Shown here in pieces: positions 12,001-21,000 of a DNA stretch of 64,000 bases (its first letter is position 1; each line of letters starts with the position of its first letter). A program made the position numbers. The stretch comes from Chrysemys picta bellii (Eukaryota), in assembly GCF_011386835.1 (NCBI RefSeq), contig NC_088806.1:1054001-1118000 (forward strand). Direction: 5' to 3'.

Positions 12001-15000
12001 GAATTGCTGGTGTGACGTGTGGTTCGCCAGTGGGGTGAGACCAAAGTCCTCTCTGTCTGGCTGGTTTGGTGCTGGGTGTGCAAAGGACCCGAGCCTTGGG
12101 CGGGGTCTGCCCTGCTCTGAGCGATTTGTCCTGGATTGAGGCTCTCAGTTGGGTCCCACCAGAACCAGCATCATTACCGACCCCTTACCCCTGTCTGTGA
12201 CCCCCAATCCCCAGAGCCAGGCCCGGGAGGGAGGGACGCGGACAGGGGTGAGGGGACCCAGGCCTCCATTGTGCTGGGGGGTGGGGGGAGTTTGTCCAAA
12301 CCCGGGTTGCGTTTAAAACGAAGTGAGGAACGGAAGCATTGTGGTTTCCTGTCGCGCTGGGCCAGACGCTGTGAGCTCTGGAAAGCTGCCAAGGGCCGGG
12401 TTAGGAGCCATGGGCATAGGACAGAGGTTGTTAGCAGCAGCAGGGGCCTGCAGCAGGGAAACTGAGGCACACAAACCAGTGAGAGTCACATGCCACACAA
12501 CATGGGGAAACCCCCCCCCCCGGTCACACGGCATCCTGCGTGCCTCGGACTCAGCCGATCCCCCCGCCCGGGCGCCGGGTCAGGGGTGGGAGAGGAATGT
12601 GCAGCTTTTGGAAACTTTCCCATGACCTGTCCCCGGAGGAATGCCACGGCCTGGGGGATGCGGGGGAGACCTGCCAGCTGGCCGGGCAGCGACCATTAAT
12701 GCCCGGAAGCCATGGGGAGCAGGAACTGGAGGCCGAGTGCCTGGGGGCCAGGCTGGGAGTCCGTCCTGCGACTCTGAACATTACGATAGAGGCAGATTTT
12801 TTAAAAACACTTAAACCCCCTGTCCCAGACCCCCATATTCCCCCCCCCACGTGCTCTCTCTCGGCTCCACACAGCCCTGGGGGGGTCTCCCTGCAATGCG
12901 ACGGCCCCTCTTGGGGACCTGCTGTCTCTCCCAGGGCCCCAGCCCTGCCTGGGCCCGCACCTCTGAGCCCCCCACAGCTGGGCCCCCTTGCTCTGGGGCG
13001 GGGGACATGCGGGGCGAAGAAGCCCCCCGGGGCCAGGGATGTATGCGCATGGCCCTTTAAATATCACTGTGATGTCATCGCTGGCGCTACTGTGACATCA
13101 CGGCAGGCAGCTCCTCCCCCTGTGCCCACCCACCGCCTCTCCCGCTGCTGGGGGGCAGCCAATGGCAGCGTGGCGACTGCTGGAGCTCCTCCTCCTTGGG
13201 GCCACGGGCATCTGGGCGACAGGTGGGTGCCGGGGGGGATGGACAGGTGCCCCTGCCCCAATCATACCCTCCCCCCCTGCCCTGGAAGGGGGACGGGTCC
13301 TTCCCTACAGTCGATGTCACAGGGCAACCCCTCCCCCTCCAGCCTTTGATGGCGTGTGATGTCACGGAGGCTTCTGATGTCACACATGTGGCGCTGTGAT
13401 GTCATCCAGTGAACGGGAACAGGGGGGTGGAGATGTGGCATGTGAAGGGCTGGGAGCCCGGACGCCTGGGTTCTCTCCCCGGCGCTGGGAGGGGAGTGGG
13501 GGTTGGTGGGTCAGAGCAGGGGGGGCTGGGAGCCAGGACTCCTGGGTTCTCTCTCCGGCTCTGGGAGGGGAGTGGGGGTTGGTGGGTCAGAGCAAAGGGG
13601 CTGGTAGCCAGGACTCCTGGGTTCTCTCCCCGGCTCTGGGAGGGGAGTGGGGGCTGGCAGGGAGAGGGGGGCAAATGTCTCTAACGGGGGCTCTGTCTCC
13701 CCAGGCTGTGGCTTCCGGCCGGGATACGACAGCCCCAGCCTCTCCCCCGCACCCCGCATCATCGGGGGGCAGAAAAGCCGCCCTGGGGAATGGCCCTGGG
13801 TTGTGAGTCTCCAGACCCAAGGGCACCACTTCTGTGGGGGGAGCGTCATACACTCCTGGTGGGTGCTGAGCGCAGCCCACTGCTTCCACGACACCCGGTA
13901 AGGGGGTTGCGGGTCGGGAGTGAGGGGCACTGGCAGAGCTGGGGGGGGGGCAGGGCTGGGCTGGCAGGGGCTGCGGGTCGGGAGTGAGGGGCACCGGCAG
14001 AGCTGGGGGACAGGGCTGGGCTGGCAGGGCCTGCGGGTCGGGAGTGAGGGGCACCGGCAGAGCTGGGGGGGGGCAGGGCTGGGCTGGCAGGGGCTGCGGG
14101 TCGGGAGTGAGGGGCACCGGCAGAGCTGGGGGACAGGGCTGGGCTGGCAGGGCCTGCGGGTCGGGAGTGAGGGGCACTGGCAGAGCTGGGGGGGGCAGGG
14201 CCGGGCTAGCAGGGGCTGTGGGTCGGGAGTGAGGGGCGCTATCCCTGTGCCCAGGCCCCAGGACGTGATGGTGGCGGCCGGCAGCGTGACCCTGGGCATG
14301 GGCGGCGTCACCCGGCGGGTTCGACGGATCCTGTCCCACCCCAGCTACAGCCGCAGCACCTACGACTCGGACCTGGCCCTGCTGCTGCTGAGCCGCCCCC
14401 TGCCCCCGGGCCGGGGTCTCGGCCTCGTCTGCCTCCCCGGGGAGCCGGCCGACGAGGACGACGGGCAGTGGGGCAGCTGCTATGTGGCCGGGTGGGGCAC
14501 CACGGAGTACGGTGAGCGGGGCTACCTGGTGGGCCTGAGCCGGGGGGAGCAGGGGCGGGGCTGGGAGGGGGCTGGGGAGGAGGGGGTCTCTCCAGGGGTG
14601 TCTGGCTGGGGGGGGTCAGGCCGGAGGGGGTGGGGCCGATGGCTGGGGGGGCCCATGGCTGGGGGGGGTCTCTCTGGGGGTGGTCTGGCCGGGGCTGCAC
14701 CGTAGTCTCTCGCAGGGCAGGAGACGGTGTCGGGAGTGCTGCAGGGGGCTGGCAGGGCCCATGGCTGGGGGGGAATCCGGCTGGGGGGAATCTGGCCGCG
14801 GGGGGTTCCGGCAGGGGGTTCGCAGGGGGGTCCGGCCGGGCTGCAGCGTCGTCTCTCGCAGGGCAGGAGACGGTGTCGGGGGCGCTGCGGGAGGCTGGCG
14901 TGCGGATCGTCGATTGGCTGCGCTGCATGTGGTGGATGGGGGCCCTGACCCAAAACATGGTCTGCGCCGGGCACGAGGAGGGCGGCCGGGACGCCTGCCA

Positions 15001-18000: not shown

Positions 18001-21000
18001 TCGCTTCCTTCATTCACTGCCTCCTCCGCGTCTGTCCTCCCTCCGTCGCTTCCTTCCTTCCTCTGTCAATTCCTCCACTGCTTCCTCCTTCGCTTCCTTC
18101 CTCCATCGCTTCCTCCGTCACTTCCTTCCTTCCTCCACTTCCTTCATTCACTGCCTCCTCTGCGTCTGTCCTCCCTCCGTCGCTTCCTCCGTCGCTTCCT
18201 TCCTTCCTCCACTTCCTTCATGCACTGCCTCCTCCGCGTCTGTCCTCCCTCCTCCGCTTCCTCCATCGCTTCCTCCTTCCTTCGCTTCCTCCGCATCTGT
18301 CCTTCCTCTGTCACTTCCACCTTCCTCCGCTTCCTCCGTCACTTCCTTCCTTCCTCCACTTCCTTCATTCACTGCCTCCTCCGCGTCTGTCCTCCCTCCT
18401 CCGCCAATTCCTTCCTTCCTCTGTCAATTCCTCCATTGCTTCCTCCTTCGCTTCCTTCCTCCATCGCTTCCTCCGTCACTTCCTTCCTTCCTCCACTTCC
18501 TTCATTCACTGCCTCCTCCGCGTCTGTCCTCCCTCCGTCGCTTCCTCCGTCGCTTCCTTCCTTCCTCCACTTCCTTCATGCACTGCCTCCTCCGCGTCTG
18601 TCCTCCCTCCTCCGCTTCCTCCATCGCTTCCTCCTTCCTTCGCTTCCTCCGCATCTGTCCTTCCTCTGTCACTTCCACCTTCCTCCGCTTCCTCCGTCAC
18701 TTCCTTCCTTCCTCCACTTCCTTCATTCACTGCCTCCTCTGCGTCTGTCCTCCCTCCGTCGCTTCCTCCTTCGCTTCCTTCCTTCCTCAGTCGCTTCCTT
18801 CCTCTGTCGCTTCCTTCCTCCGTCGCTTCCTCCTTCACTTCCTTCCTTCCTGTCGCTTCCTTCTCTTCCTTCCTCCTTCCTCCCTCCGTCGCTTCCTCCC
18901 TCCGTTGCTTCCTTCCTCCATCGCTTCCTTCATTCACTGCCTCCTCCGCATCTGTCCTCCCTCCGTCGCTTCCTCCGTTGCTTCCTTCCTTCCTCTGCTT
19001 CCTCCATCACTTCCTTCCTTCCTCCACTTCCTTCATTCACTGCCTCCTCTGCGTCTGTCCTCCCTCCGTCGCTTCCTTCCTCCTTCGCTTCCTTCCTCCC
19101 TCGCTTCCTCCTTCACTTCCTTCCTCCGTCGCTTCCTTCCTTCCTCCACTTCCTTCAATCGCTGCCTCCTCCATGTCTGTCCTTCCTCCGTCGCTTCCTT
19201 TATTCGCTGACTCCTCTGCATCACTCCTCCTTCCTCCTCCACTTCCTTCCTCCCTCGTTTCCTTCCCCCCTTGCTTCCTCCGGCGCCTCCTTCGCTTCCT
19301 CCACGTCTCTCCTTCTCCGCTTCCTTCATTCGCTGCCTCCTCCGCGTCTGTCATTCTTCCTCCTTCGCTTCCTTCATCCGTCGCTTCCTTCCTCTACCAC
19401 TTCCTCTGCATCTGTCCTCCTCTGCTTCCTTCATTGGCTGCCTCCTCCGGGTCTGTCCTTCCTCCATCGCTTCCTCCTCTGCGTCTCCTCCTTTCTTCCT
19501 CCTTCCTCCCTCGTGTCTTTCCTCCTTCCTCTGTCGCTTCCTTTGCTTCCTCCCTGGTTGGTTTGTTGGTTCTCGCTGGCGCGTTCTTGCGTTTTCTCCT
19601 TCGTCCATTCAGCCCGCGTCTCGTTCCTTCGCTTTCTCGGTGACCTGGCTTCTCCTTCGATGCTCGTCCATTGCCTCCATTTCTCCTTCGTTTCTTCGTT
19701 CGTTTTCTCCTTCTGTCCCCGACTCCTTTTCTCGTCAGTTCGTTCGTGGCCTCCTTTTTCTCGTTGGTTTGTTTTCTCGCCTGTTCATTCATTGAGTCAT
19801 TTTCTCCATTTTTCTCCCCCTTGTCAGTTTGTTAATTGACTCATCTGCTCGTTCGTCGCCTCGTTCTCTCGTTCGTTTCCTGCTTTTCTCGCTCGTTGAG
19901 TCTCGTCCTCATTTGCTGCTTTCCTCGCTCATTACTTGATTCATTTCTTCCTTTGTTCAGCCTCTCGGTTTCTTGCTGGTTCGTTTTCCTCCTTCATTGG
20001 CTGACTCGTTCTCTCGTTCCAGGGTGACAGCGGGGGGCCCCTGCAGTGCCAGGCCCCCCAGGGCTCCCCCTGGTACCAGGTGGGCGTCGTGAGCTGGGGC
20101 CGGGGCTGCGGGAGGCGCCAGCGTCCGGGCGTCTACACCCGCGTGGCCAACTACCGGGCCTGGATGGATGAGGCCACCGCAGCAGTGGGGAGACCCCTGA
20201 GGCCCCAGAAGGCCACCCCCACCAGTCTGGGCTCCGCCCCCCAAAAGACAGAGCCGGAGGTCGCCGGAGGCCCCCGCCCCTGCCCGTGGCGGCCCCTGGG
20301 CCTTTCCCTGGGGCTGGCTCTGGGGAGGTGGCTGGGCTGAGCGAGACACAAGGCATGCTGGGAAGAGGACAGAGCCGCCGCCGCCAAGGATTGTGGGCGG
20401 GGATGGCTACGTTGGCCACTGAGATTGGCCAACACTTTGGGAGGGAGGGGCAGGAGGGCGAAGGGGCATTAAATATTATGTAGAGAAGCGGAGAGCGAAC
20501 TGTTCACTGGGAATAGGGGACCCAGGCAACCAGGAGAGCAGAGCAGGACGCTCGCCTCTGGGGAGGGGAGATGGGACCCAGGCATCTGGGACGGCAGCGG
20601 AGGGTGCTCGCCTCTGGGGAGGGGAGATGGGACCCAGGCATCCGGGACGGCAGCGGAGGGTGCTCGCCTCTGGGGAGGGGAGATGGGACCCAGGCATCCG
20701 GGACGGCAGCGGAGGGTGCTCGCCTCTGGGGAGGGGAGATGGGACCCAGGCATCCGGGACGGCAGCGGAGGGCGCTCACCCCTGGGAAGGGGACATGGGA
20801 ACCAGGTGTCCAGGAGAGCAGAGCAGGACGCTCGCCCCTGGAGAGGGGAGATGGGACCCAGGCGTCCGGGAAAGCAGAGCAGGGCGCTCATCCTAGGGGG
20901 ACGGTGGGGAGGGGAGATGGGGCCCAGGCATCTGGGACGGCAGCGCAGGGTGCTCGCCCCTGGGGAGGGGAGATGGGACCCAGGCATCCGGGATGGCAGC

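What the first reader, a model, noticed from the sequence alone, without database searches (positions are those of the whole stretch)
13162..20340. Intact trypsin-like protease with a probable GPI tail between CXCL16 and ZMYND15, where human has no such gene
Seen: a complete 322-aa S1A zymogen with signal peptide, a propeptide Cys to pair with the VCLP Cys, R|IIGG, a full triad, the D189/G216/G226 trypsin-type pocket, a Pro/Thr spacer and a terminal hydrophobic stretch with no cytoplasmic tail. Known: human CXCL16 and ZMYND15 are immediate head-to-head neighbours, and this architecture is that of GPI-anchored testis proteases (PRSS21, PRSS55). Inference: a lineage-specific or mammal-lost cell-surface, possibly sperm, protease. 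I cannot name an ortholog.
Basis: partly seen in the sequence, partly recalled or inferred. Interest (0 to 1): 0.68.

Follow-up and report, generated by a model that had tools for sequence, protein, structure and literature searches.

The report
Reptile-only active paralogue of sperm protease PRSS55
This turtle gene encodes an intact trypsin-like protease, a sister of the mammalian sperm protease PRSS55, found only in turtles, lizards and snakes in the databases searched and lying between CXCL16 and ZMYND15; it is an ordinary kind of enzyme with an unusual evolutionary distribution.

Summary

- **Already in databases.** The model matches the RefSeq prediction "serine protease 55-like" of Chrysemys picta bellii at 316 of 319 residues. 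No paper on it turned up.
- **Not PRSS55 itself.** Turtles carry a separate PRSS55. Trees and AU tests place the window gene with squamate "PRSS55-like" proteins, in a clade distinct from amniote PRSS55. No bird, crocodilian or mammalian member was found.
- **Neighbourhood confirmed.** Gene order is MED11, CXCL16(-), protease(+), ZMYND15(+), a TM4SF gene, VMO1.
The gene lies in a ~23 kb tandem duplicate whose junction is an N gap. Copy 2 (36339-40314) has a +1 G frameshift in exon 2.
- **Turtle PRSS55 proper looks inactive.** It lacks the catalytic serine in 7 of 8 species rows, so this gene may be the family's only active enzyme in turtles.

The GPI anchor and testis expression remain inference: the tail fits a GPI signal by inspection but is weakly hydrophobic.

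Verdict: a new member of a known kind, of moderate interest.

The parts
13056..13100 (+). Putative core promoter: TATA-like TTTAAATA (13056-13063) and two CRE/ATF-like octamers TGATGTCA (13070-13077 on +, 13093-13100 on -), 62-106 nt upstream of the ATG
   Evidence: Read. The motif count is: 13 in the window against 0.72 expected. Promoter function is inferred, not shown.
13162..13222 (+). Exon 1: start codon and signal-peptide-like segment (MAAWRLLELLLLGATGIWAT plus 1 nt of a split Gly codon)
   Evidence: It is 20/20 identical to P0006. The model of P0006 shows a helix at residues 2-14.
13357..13404 (+). Three more TGATGTCA octamers in intron 1
13705..13897 (+). Exon 2: propeptide Cys, activation site PR|IIGG, and His57 (AAHC)
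   Evidence: It is 63/63 identical to P0006.
14255..14511 (+). Exon 3: Asp102 (SDLALLLL), Cys122 (VCLP), acidic loop EPADEDD, and GWG
   Evidence: It is 83/85 identical to P0006.
14716..14745 (+). Decoy: a partial tandem duplicate of the exon-4 acceptor and its first ~19 nt inside intron 3. Using it would shift the frame, because 14716-14861 is 146 nt.
   Evidence: Read. It is not used in the RefSeq-type model.
14862..15001 (+). Exon 4: Cys168/Cys182 loop (RCMWWMGALTQNMVCAG) and D189-A-C-Q
   Evidence: It is 46/46 identical to P0006.
15310..19493 (.). CT-rich satellite-like array filling most of the 5.0 kb intron 4 (period about 358 bp, roughly 10 copies, plus shorter periods)
   Evidence: Intron 4 is 5.0 kb here and about 1.6 kb in copy 2 (exon coordinates).
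20023..20340 (+). Exon 5: GDSGGP (Ser195), SWGRGCG, PGVY, the GRPL motif, a Pro/Thr spacer, the small-residue cluster AGG, an 8-aa spacer PRPCPWRP, a 14-aa hydrophobic end [14 protein letters not shown], and TGA
   Evidence: It is 104/105 identical to P0006.
20468..20473 (+). ATTAAA, a possible polyadenylation signal 128 nt after the stop codon
   Evidence: Read. Its function is inferred.
36339..40314 (+). Copy 2 of the gene. Exons are 36339-36399, 36885-37078, 37618-37874, 38212-38351 and 39997-40314. It differs in coding sequence by 3 substitutions (all non-synonymous) and one extra G in a G-run in exon 2, which shifts the frame.
   Evidence: At the three substituted residues, copy 2 carries the residues of P0006.
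1946..24927 (.). First unit of a ~23 kb tandem duplication. It holds part of MED11, CXCL16, the protease, and the 5' exons of ZMYND15 including its MYND finger. It matches 25508-45157.
   Evidence: Substitution divergence is 0.3-0.9% within the gene and 1.0-2.3% in the flanks.
25008..25507 (.). A run of 500 N lying exactly at the junction of the two units.
4958..6950 (-). Upstream divergent neighbour, CXCL16-like: signal-peptide exon near 6900, two chemokine-domain exons, and a transmembrane-plus-tail exon at 4958-5233
   Evidence: Pfam CXCL16 PF20902 gives weak but collinear matches on two successive minus-strand ORFs: profile 1-48 (E 0.038) and 47-74 (E 0.006). ORFs are listed. Both matches are below the curated cut-off.
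21518..23303 (+). Downstream neighbour, 5' exons of ZMYND15. The second half of the MYND finger is at 23043-23303. The complete gene follows copy 2, from about 41700.
   Evidence: Pfam zf-MYND PF01753, E 6.2e-5, 23.4 bits against a cut-off of 22.7. ORFs are listed.

Best explanation
The locus is an intact protein-coding gene of an emydid turtle (Chrysemys picta or a very close relative). It belongs to a turtle-plus-squamate lineage, here called clade B (RefSeq name 'serine protease 55-like'). Clade B is a paralogue of PRSS55, not its orthologue, and it lies between CXCL16 and ZMYND15.

Shown by sequence:
- a signal-peptide-like N-terminus;
- a propeptide whose Cys can stay disulfide-tethered to Cys122;
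- a zymogen activation site R|IIGG;
- the complete His57/Asp102/Ser195 triad;
- a trypsin-type S1 pocket (D189, G216, G226; Ala190), so cleavage after Arg/Lys is expected;
- a disordered Pro/Thr stalk;
- a C-terminal signal-like end.

Inferred mechanism: the protein enters the secretory pathway. Its C-terminal ~24 residues are replaced by a GPI anchor at the small-residue cluster A-G-G. A trypsin-like cleavage at R|I then activates it on the cell surface. There it processes other surface proteins, most likely on male germ cells, as mouse PRSS55 does.

The paralogue arose before turtles and squamates diverged. It was not found in mammals, birds, crocodilians or amphibians. In turtles it may be the only catalytically competent member of the family, because turtle PRSS55 proper has lost Ser195.
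For: **Gene model.**

**Orthologues.** Exon 5 alone retrieves turtle proteins from 6 species at 68-99% identity. The list covers Cryptodira and Pleurodira. The tail is conserved among them.

**Nearest relatives.** A profile of the six turtle proteins ranks 16 single-domain squamate rows (50-56% identity) directly after the turtle rows among single-domain proteins. Alligator and rodent PRSS55 score 42-43%. At domain level the scores are: window-type turtles 436-699 bits, squamates 292-370, amphibians and PRSS55 proper 320 or less.

**Separate PRSS55 in turtles.** The two Pelodiscus proteins are 38% identical, whereas Chrysemys versus Podarcis clade B is 56%.

**Careful ML tree** (64 rows, 309 columns):
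- window turtles plus squamates: 100/98;
- PRSS55 proper: 99/99;
- the whole superfamily against outgroups: 99/95.

**AU tests.**
- 'Window turtles plus turtle PRSS55 form one clade' is rejected, p = 6e-6.
- 'Squamates plus PRSS55 proper, without the window turtles' is rejected, p = 2e-4.

**Catalytic residues.** They are intact in every clade-B row wherever the row covers the site (6 turtle and 16 squamate rows).

**Fold.** The AlphaFold model of the RefSeq twin has pLDDT 82.6. Its PDB matches are TMPRSS2, FXIa and kallikrein, with target-normalised TM 0.88-0.90.

**Tail.**
- Every turtle row shows a small-residue cluster, an 8-aa spacer and a 14-aa hydrophobic end with no residues beyond it.
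- 13 of 14 squamate rows end in a hydrophobic stretch within 9 residues of the C-terminus.
- The same layout occurs in PRSS55 proper.
- Mouse PRSS55 is released by PI-PLC and is testis- and sperm-specific (PMC6208766, passages read).

**Neighbourhood.**

**Motif.** A CRE/ATF-like octamer is clustered around exon 1 of both copies.
Against: - **No expression data** of any kind were available, so testis or sperm expression is inferred only from relatives and a motif cluster.
- **No GPI or signal-peptide predictor was available.**
- **The tail is weakly hydrophobic.** The window protein has the least hydrophobic tail of all groups compared: best 12-residue Kyte-Doolittle mean 1.12, against 1.82-3.06 in 19 rows of PRSS55 proper. 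The tail also contains an Arg.
- **The signal-like segment holds a Glu.**
- **Timing of the duplication is unresolved.** The free tree puts amphibians with PRSS55 proper (92/87, unstarred). The alternative, clade B sister to PRSS55 proper with amphibians outside, is not rejected (p = 0.062).
- **The AU groups were named after the first tree had been seen.**
- **Absence from archosaurs and mammals rests on protein databases.** GC-rich microchromosomal genes are often missing from bird assemblies (recalled). One search scored only the 8000 candidates sharing most words, and one search lists only cluster representatives at 50% identity.
- **Synteny of the squamate genes could not be checked.**
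- **PRSSLY sequences were not in the tree.**
- **The second copy may be an assembly artefact.** The intact copy differs from the RefSeq protein at 3 residues, all non-synonymous.
Confidence: 0.6

Rival explanations
1. Same gene and same enzyme, but it is secreted as a soluble protease or expressed in somatic epithelia, like prostasin-type channel-activating proteases. The short Gly/Leu C-terminus would then not be a working GPI signal, and the gene would have no germ-cell role.
For: The tail is weakly hydrophobic (best 12-residue mean 1.12) and interrupted by Arg. No predictor and no expression data were available. The PRSSLY paper reports that non-eutherian PRSSLY homologues are expressed in somatic tissues as well (PMC9178871, passages), so testis specificity is not a fixed trait of this superfamily.
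Against: The three-part tail layout is conserved across turtles, from Cryptodira to Pleurodira, and in 13 of 14 squamate rows. The homologous tail of mouse PRSS55 is a proven GPI signal. A stretch of 14 residues with no cytosolic tail has no other obvious role.
Confidence: 0.25
2. It is the sauropsid counterpart of PRSSLY/PRSSLX, the ancestral sex-chromosome protease whose closest paralogue is PRSS55, rather than a separate lineage.
For: PRSSLY is described as PRSS55's closest paralogue, with homologues in lizards, newts and caecilians (PMC9178871: abstract, section 5 and passages). No PRSSLY sequence could be placed in my trees. The paper's additional files, which list homologues and sequences, were closed.
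Against: The paper states that PRSSLY was lost in turtles, birds, crocodilians, snakes and frogs, and that the anole homologue lies on chr1 in a block syntenic with the human X. Clade B contains 6 turtle and 4 snake species rows. The window's neighbours are MED11, CXCL16, ZMYND15, a TM4SF gene and VMO1, not an X-type block.
Confidence: 0.07
3. It is simply turtle PRSS55, the orthologue of the characterised mammalian gene, moved to a new location.
For: NCBI names the Caretta protein 'serine protease 55 isoform X1' without '-like'. PRSS55 is the best-named relative.
Against: Eight turtle rows of a different protein group with crocodilian and bird PRSS55. Two species have both genes. The AU test rejects uniting the two turtle groups (p = 6e-6).
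Confidence: 0.03
4. It is a decaying or unexpressed gene copy. The open frame is a recent accident of duplication in a repeat-rich, GC-rich region.
For: Copy 2 has a frameshift. All 3 coding differences between the copies are non-synonymous. Exons are not clearly more conserved between the copies than the adjacent introns: 3/969 against 5/816 mismatches.
Against: The full-length frame and all catalytic, disulfide and tail features are conserved across 6 turtle and 16 squamate rows. That implies long-term purifying selection on the lineage. The frameshift is a +1 in a run of 6 G, a typical sequencing error.
Confidence: 0.03

Closest known systems
PRSS55 (mouse/human testis-specific, GPI-anchored serine protease; PMC6208766)
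   Same: Same superfamily (99/95 against outgroup S1A proteases). It shares the single S1A domain, propeptide Cys, R|I-I/V-G-G activation site, trypsin-type pocket, a G-[RK]-P-[FL] motif after the domain, a stalk, and a hydrophobic extreme C-terminus.
   Different: Identity is only 38-43%. The window gene sits in a separate, well-supported clade, and turtles have PRSS55 as well. The genomic neighbourhood also differs: the window is of human 17p13 type, while human PRSS55 is on 8p23 (recalled). The tail is less hydrophobic. No function has been tested.
Squamate 'serine protease 55-like' proteins (for example Podarcis P0143, Hemicordylus P0137, Vipera P0150)
   Same: They are the sister group of the window gene's turtle clade (100/98), at 50-56% identity. 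Their catalytic apparatus is intact in 16 of 16 rows, and 13 of 14 rows end in a hydrophobic C-terminus.
   Different: Their genomic position is unknown to me. They use R|IVGG instead of R|IIGG. The stalk sequences are unrelated.
Turtle PRSS55 proper (for example Malaclemys P0242, Pelodiscus P0241)
   Same: Same genomes, same superfamily, and the same tail layout.
   Different: It looks like a pseudoprotease. Ser195 is replaced by R, G or H in 7 of 8 rows, Asp102 is Asn in 4 of 8, and none of the 5 rows covering the site has a canonical activation motif. It lies on contigs of about 200 Mb, whereas the window-type gene of Caretta and Emydura lies on contigs of 16.6 and 15.6 Mb.
PRSS21 (testisin) and PRSS8 (prostasin), GPI-anchored S1A proteases
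   Same: Prostasin chains appear among the PDB sequence matches of exons 3 and 5.
   Different: They are not the nearest relatives. The prostasin- and PRSS27-like rows used as outgroups fall outside the PRSS55 superfamily.
PRSSLY / PRSSLX (PMC9178871)
   Same: It is another PRSS55-related tetrapod protease with patchy retention across lineages, and its expression in lizards is highest in testis (passages).
   Different: It is reported lost in turtles and snakes and syntenic with the X chromosome. It has a long upstream ORF, which is absent here. It was not compared by sequence.

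Membership tests
S1A chymotrypsin-fold serine proteases (Pfam PF00089) | Profile match over the whole catalytic domain | tested here: met
   Exons 2-5 match profile positions 1-46, 50-131, 137-177 and 178-220 in order. One exon piece scores 19.2 bits, under the 20.6 cut-off.
S1A chymotrypsin-fold serine proteases (Pfam PF00089) | Catalytic triad His57, Asp102, Ser195 | tested here: met
   AAHC, SDLALLLL and GDSGGP are present. Asp102 is aligned to trypsin. 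The columns were checked.
S1A chymotrypsin-fold serine proteases (Pfam PF00089) | Zymogen activation site, Asp194, and the conserved cysteines including the propeptide Cys and Cys122 | tested here: met
   PR|IIGG, GDSGG, and cysteines at all five canonical pair positions. The pairing itself is inferred.
S1A chymotrypsin-fold serine proteases (Pfam PF00089) | Two-barrel fold | tested here: met
   Model of the RefSeq twin P0006: pLDDT 82.6. Foldseek matches to TMPRSS2, FXIa and kallikrein have target-normalised TM 0.88-0.90. The model is of P0006, not of the window's own joined protein.
S1A chymotrypsin-fold serine proteases (Pfam PF00089) | Proteolytic activity | not testable with these tools
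   Needs expression and an assay.
Trypsin-type S1 specificity | Asp189, Gly216, Gly226 | tested here: met
   RDACQ, SWGRGC and PGVY. The columns were checked.
PRSS55 orthologous group (PRSS55 proper) | Groups with mammalian, bird and crocodilian PRSS55 in a tree, to the exclusion of other lineages | tested here: not met
   It falls in clade B with squamates (100/98). PRSS55 proper is a separate clade at 99/99.
PRSS55 orthologous group (PRSS55 proper) | No better PRSS55 candidate in the same genome | tested here: not met
   Pelodiscus and Emydura each have a second protein that is 62-65% identical to alligator PRSS55. The two Pelodiscus proteins are 38% identical.
PRSS55 orthologous group (PRSS55 proper) | Conserved neighbourhood of PRSS55 | tested here: not met
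   The window's neighbours are MED11, CXCL16, ZMYND15, a TM4SF gene and VMO1. The neighbourhood of human PRSS55 is recalled only.
PRSS55 superfamily (PRSS55/51/52, amphibian relatives, clade B) | Monophyly against other S1A proteases | tested here: met
   99/95 against five rows outside the superfamily: four designated outgroups (fish prostasin and PRSS27-like, squamate PRSS27- and PRSS53-like) plus bird acrosin-like. The sample of outside rows is small.
PRSS55 superfamily (PRSS55/51/52, amphibian relatives, clade B) | G-[RK]-P-[FL] motif after the domain, then a stalk, then a hydrophobic extreme C-terminus | tested here: met
   GRPL, a Pro/Thr stalk, then [14 protein letters not shown].
GPI-anchored proteins | N-terminal signal peptide | tested here: inconclusive
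   The segment is hydrophobic with small residues at candidate cleavage sites, and the model shows a helix at 2-14. No predictor was available, and there is a Glu in the core.
GPI-anchored proteins | C-terminal signal: small omega to omega+2 residues, a spacer of 5-10 residues, a hydrophobic end of 10-20 residues, and nothing beyond it | tested here: inconclusive
   A-G-G, then PRPCPWRP, then a 14-residue end. This is conserved in 6 turtle rows. Hydropathy is low at 1.12, and no predictor was available.
GPI-anchored proteins | Release by PI-PLC or detergent partitioning | not testable with these tools
   Shown only for mouse PRSS55 (PMC6208766).
PRSSLY / PRSSLX group | Groups with PRSSLY homologues in a tree | not tested
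   No PRSSLY sequence was at hand.
PRSSLY / PRSSLX group | Location in the block syntenic with the mammalian X, and the taxon distribution given in the paper | tested here: not met
   The window's neighbours are of 17p13 type. The paper reports loss in turtles and snakes, yet clade B has both.

The most novel reading that the evidence does not exclude
Clade B may be an old sister lineage of PRSS55 that arose in stem amniotes or earlier. The two paralogues would then have been sorted reciprocally. Mammals, birds and crocodilians kept only PRSS55. Squamates kept only clade B, plus PRSSLY-like genes in lizards. Turtles kept both but let PRSS55 decay into a pseudoprotease. On that reading the gene between CXCL16 and ZMYND15 is the sole catalytically active, GPI-anchored PRSS55-type sperm-surface protease of turtles, and it is now being duplicated again.
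Probability: 0.3. Interest if true: 0.5.

Novelty: new member of a known kind. Interest (0 to 1): 0.36.

Why it matters
[quoted passage not shown] Reproductive proteases also turn over quickly in evolution. This locus shows that reptiles carry a second, catalytically intact lineage of that family, which the literature searched does not describe. It also shows that automated names ('PRSS55', 'PRSS55-like', 'acrosin') blur two different genes.

In turtles the named PRSS55 seems to have lost its catalytic serine. Any functional inference about turtle sperm proteolysis drawn from the mammalian gene would therefore point at the wrong locus.

The finding gives a defined candidate for reptile fertility studies. 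It is also a clean case for studying reciprocal retention of paralogues. It does not reveal a new kind of enzyme.

Tried and rejected
**Steps that failed or were corrected**
- Whole-frame translations of the flanks could not be scanned against Pfam because they contain stop codons. I used single ORFs instead.
- A strict and a loose MYND-finger regular expression found nothing, because the finger is split between two exons. Pfam found its second half.
- One paper look-up failed on a term that was too short and was resent correctly.

**Searches that added little or nothing**
- The representative search was dominated by multi-domain polyserases. Only 8 single-stretch rows reached the list, and none was a new clade-B lineage. 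The three unnamed single-domain rows tried (P0469, P0474, P0215) fell among amphibians (96, quick tree). Five further unnamed rows fell outside the superfamily on long branches.
- Rfam at gathering thresholds: 0 matches in the window.
- The canonical CRE TGACGTCA: 0 matches.
- The literature search for 'serine protease 55-like' found 1 paper, on a monk seal genome, seen as a search listing only. The search for 'PRSS55' plus 'reptile' found 5 papers, none on this gene (listing). The PRSSLY paper was read in passages and section 5.

**Arguments rejected**
- Exon-versus-intron divergence between the two copies is not evidence of selection: 3/969 against 5/816 mismatches.

**Not available**
- The genome-contig collection holds only bacteria and archaea, so it was not used.
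- The PRSSLY paper's additional files could not be seen.

Full report
**Scope.** The window is a GC-rich reptile contig, not human: its proteins match turtle RefSeq entries at 99%. Whole-length comparisons used public turtle proteins returned by the searches. The 500-N run at 25008-25507 was left as it is.

**The observation.** Read, the + strand carries five exons:
- 13162-13222
- 13705-13897
- 14255-14511
- 14862-15001
- 20023-20340

All four introns have GT...AG boundaries, with phases 1, 2, 1 and 0. The exon translations add up to 322 residues, counting three split codons. Pfam's Trypsin profile is covered in order by exons 2 to 5, at E 8e-16, 3.3e-10, 1.2e-3 and 5.6e-13. PDB sequence searches with exons 2, 3 and 5 return only S1A proteases.
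- a signal-like N-terminus;
- the propeptide Cys;
- PR|IIGG;
- His57, Asp102 and Ser195;
- Asp189, Gly216 and Gly226;
- the VCLP Cys;
- a Pro/Thr spacer;
- a terminal [15 protein letters not shown] followed directly by the stop codon.

An ATTAAA lies 128 nt after the stop. Intron 4 (5.0 kb) is almost wholly a CT-rich array with a period of about 358 bp. Intron 3 holds a frame-breaking decoy copy of the exon-4 acceptor.

**The gene already exists as a database model.** Exon 5 alone retrieves 'serine protease 55-like [Chrysemys picta bellii]' (P0006, 322 aa) at 99%. It also retrieves proteins from Pangshura, Caretta, Pelodiscus, Emydura and Pelusios at 68-93%. The five exon peptides match P0006 collinearly: 20/20, 63/63, 83/85, 46/46 and 104/105, with one residue between successive exons. 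The six turtle proteins, which span Cryptodira and Pleurodira, are 74-93% identical to P0006 and conserve the tail.

**It is not PRSS55.**
- A profile of the six turtle proteins (120 of 4708 hits listed) ranks 16 single-domain squamate rows at 50-56% identity directly after the turtle rows, once multi-domain polyserases are set aside. Amphibian rows follow at 43-47%, and alligator and gerbil PRSS55 at 42-43%.
- A search with alligator PRSS55 (120 of 4036 listed) finds a different set of turtle proteins at 60-66% identity: Mauremys, Natator, Pelodiscus, Malaclemys, Carettochelys, Platysternon, Emydura and Gopherus.
- Pelodiscus and Emydura have both proteins, and the two Pelodiscus proteins are 38% identical.
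- I chose 70 of the 349 proteins then held by hand for a quick tree. Six were dropped before the careful tree: Drosophila, rat TMPRSS9, Chelonoidis TMPRSS9-like, a second Varanus, a second Pleurodeles, and Lamprotornis.
- The careful tree (64 rows, 309 columns) gives these supports:

| Group | Support |
|---|---|
| Window-type turtles | 100/99 |
| Window-type turtles plus squamates (clade B) | 100/98 |
| PRSS55 proper, including PRSS51/52-like, monotreme, crocodilian, turtle and bird rows (clade C) | 99/99 |
| Amphibians | 94/85 |
| Amphibians plus clade C | 92/87, unstarred |
| Whole superfamily against outgroups | 99/95 |

- AU tests reject a union of the two turtle groups (p = 6e-6). They also reject squamates joined to clade C without the window turtles (p = 2e-4).
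- AU tests do not reject clades B and C as sisters with amphibians outside (p = 0.062). The groups were named after the first tree had been seen.
- The duplication therefore predates the turtle-squamate split. Whether it predates amniotes is open.

**Distribution.**
- No bird, crocodilian or mammalian row scored between the turtles and PRSS55 level.
- In the exhaustive search of 1.84 billion cluster representatives, only 8 single-stretch proteins reached the best 150: turtle, squamate and amphibian representatives, plus three unnamed rows that fall among amphibians.
- Scored per domain, the order is window-type turtles 436-699 bits, squamates 292-370, everything else 320 or less.
- Absence from archosaurs and mammals is thus supported within these protein sets only.
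- None of the 120 rows listed was squamate, so squamates may lack PRSS55 proper. The list is truncated, and this was not followed up.

**Neighbourhood.** Pfam on single ORFs gives:

| Gene | Family | Window position | Score |
|---|---|---|---|
| MED11 | Med11 | 2903-3367 (+) | E 7e-5 (23.7 bits, under the 26.9-bit cut-off for this exon piece) |
| CXCL16 | PF20902 | two successive minus-strand ORFs, profile 1-48 and 47-74 | E 0.038 and 0.006, both under the cut-off |
| ZMYND15 | zf-MYND | 23043-23303 (+) | 23.4 bits, over the cut-off |
| TM4SF gene | L6_membrane | 49358-49700 and 53997-54440 (+) | E about 1e-19 |
| VMO1 | VOMI | 58717-60006 (-) | E 2.5e-27 |

A reverse-transcriptase fragment lies at 9839-10549 (-). 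That mammals have ZMYND15 and MED11 flanking CXCL16 is stated in a passage of preprint 10.1101/2024.09.20.614078. That nothing lies between CXCL16 and ZMYND15 in human is recalled.

**A second copy.**
- Window 1946-24927 is repeated at 25508-45157, and the N run sits exactly at the junction.
- Copy 2 of the protease (36339-40314) has identical splice sites.
- It has three coding substitutions, all non-synonymous. At these positions copy 2 carries the residues of P0006.
- It has one extra G in a run of six G in exon 2, which shifts the frame.
- Mismatch rates are 3/969 in exons, 5/816 in introns 1 and 3, 1.1% just upstream and 2.3% over the retroelement region.
- The first unit ends inside ZMYND15 and the second starts inside MED11. 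This fits either a true tandem duplication or two unmerged overlapping contigs. The 1-2% flank divergence makes me lean towards a real duplication, but I cannot decide.

**Mechanism.**
- Shown: an S1A zymogen with an intact catalytic apparatus and a trypsin-type pocket.
- The model of P0006 (alignment of 42 relatives, pLDDT 82.6) shows an N-terminal helix at 2-14, a confident protease core, a low-confidence stalk at 272-310 and a terminal helix at 311-321. Its best PDB matches are TMPRSS2, factor XIa, kallikrein, matriptase and hepsin domains (target-normalised TM 0.88-0.90, 36-40% identity).
- Inferred: GPI anchoring. The tail reads A-G-G, then an 8-residue spacer, then a 14-residue hydrophobic end. 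The pattern is kept in all six turtle rows, and 13 of 14 squamate rows have a comparable end.
- PRSS55 proper has the same layout, and mouse PRSS55 is released by PI-PLC and is testis- and sperm-specific (PMC6208766, abstract and passages).
- Against this, the window's tail is the least hydrophobic of all groups compared (1.12 against 1.82-3.06) and carries an Arg. No predictor was available.
- Germ-cell expression is inferred only from relatives and from a cluster of the CRE/ATF-like octamer TGATGTCA. There are 13 in the window against 0.72 expected, and 5 lie around exon 1 of each copy. Its reading as an ATF/CREM-type site is recalled.

**A side result.** In an alignment of 80 rows, clade B keeps the propeptide Cys, R|I-I/V-G-G, His, Asp102, Asp189, GDSGG, Gly216 and Gly226 in every row wherever the row covers the site (6 turtle and 16 squamate rows). 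Turtle PRSS55 proper differs:
- Arg, Gly or His replaces Ser195 in 7 of 8 rows;
- Asn replaces Asp102 in 4 of 8;
- none of the 5 rows covering the site has a canonical activation motif (seen directly).

Neognath bird PRSS55 rows show VDSGG and an altered pocket. If the gene models are right, the window gene is the only catalytically competent member of the family in turtles.

**Literature.**
- The search for 'serine protease 55-like' found one unrelated paper (listing).
- The search for 'PRSS55' plus 'reptile' found five papers (listing). One describes PRSSLY, PRSS55's closest paralogue.
- That paper reports PRSSLY as lost in turtles, snakes, birds, crocodilians and frogs, and places the anole homologue in a block syntenic with the X chromosome (PMC9178871: abstract, section 5 and passages).
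- These statements argue against clade B being PRSSLY.

**Verdict.** The gene is a conserved but uncharacterised reptile paralogue of PRSS55, already modelled by automated annotation. It is a new member of a known kind. The reciprocal retention of paralogues and the apparent decay of turtle PRSS55 give it moderate interest.

Noticed in passing
window 1946-24927 and 25508-45157; N run 25008-25507: A tandem repeat of about 23 kb covers part of MED11, CXCL16, the protease and the 5' half of ZMYND15. Its junction is exactly the assembly gap. It is either a true recent duplication or two unmerged overlapping contigs. Substitution divergence is 0.3-2.3% depending on the segment.
   Followed up: partly
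window 36339-40314 (about 37016-37022): Copy 2 of the protease has one extra G in a run of six G in exon 2, which shifts the frame. At the three substituted residues it is identical to the RefSeq Chrysemys protein, while the intact copy 1 is not.
   Followed up: yes
public proteins P0239-P0242, P0245-P0247, P0283 (not in the window): Turtle PRSS55 proper has Arg, Gly or His in place of the catalytic Ser195 in 7 of 8 species rows and Asn for Asp102 in 4 of 8. None of the 5 rows covering the site has a canonical activation motif. It looks like a pseudoprotease.
   Followed up: partly
public proteins P0248, P0250, P0256, P0257, P0276, P0318, P0340: Neognath bird PRSS55 rows read VDSGG instead of GDSGG, lack Asp189 and have Glu, Gln or Arg at position 226. 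Palaeognath rows (Dromaius, Rhea, Apteryx) are canonical.
   Followed up: no
listing: None of the 120 listed relatives of alligator PRSS55 is from a squamate. Squamates may have kept only the clade-B paralogue. The list is truncated (120 of 4036).
   Followed up: no
window 13070-13404 and 36246-36582: The octamer TGATGTCA, one CpG-to-TpG step from the canonical CRE, occurs 13 times in the window against 0.72 expected. Ten of these lie around exon 1 of the two protease copies, and two more lie at the same relative place downstream of each copy (21107, 41360).
   Followed up: partly
window 15310-19493 and 38352-39996: Intron 4 is a CT-rich array with a period of about 358 bp. The intron is 5.0 kb in copy 1 and about 1.6 kb in copy 2.
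   Followed up: partly
window 13903-14237, 35-826, 37082-37599: A G-rich tandem repeat of 60-62 bp in intron 2 of the protease recurs in inverted orientation at the start of the window, upstream of MED11.
   Followed up: no
window 20517-21021 and 40491-41274: A 56-bp tandem repeat (about 9 copies in unit 1, more in unit 2) lies between the protease's 3' end and ZMYND15.
   Followed up: no
window 6700-8100: A long Pro/Gly-coding tandem repeat lies just upstream of the CXCL16 signal-peptide exon. It is open in several frames on both strands. No function was assigned.
   Followed up: no
window 8817-10549 (-) and 32018-33709 (-); 63140-63999 (+): There are LINE reverse-transcriptase fragments in both duplicate units (RVT_1 E 1.4e-11 at 9839-10549) and another retroelement-like ORF at the window's end (no Pfam match).
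   Followed up: partly
public protein P0008 (Pangshura): The 362-aa model carries a 40-residue Gly/Arg-rich insert exactly at the exon 3 / exon 4 junction. It is probably intron 3 read through by the annotation pipeline.
   Followed up: no
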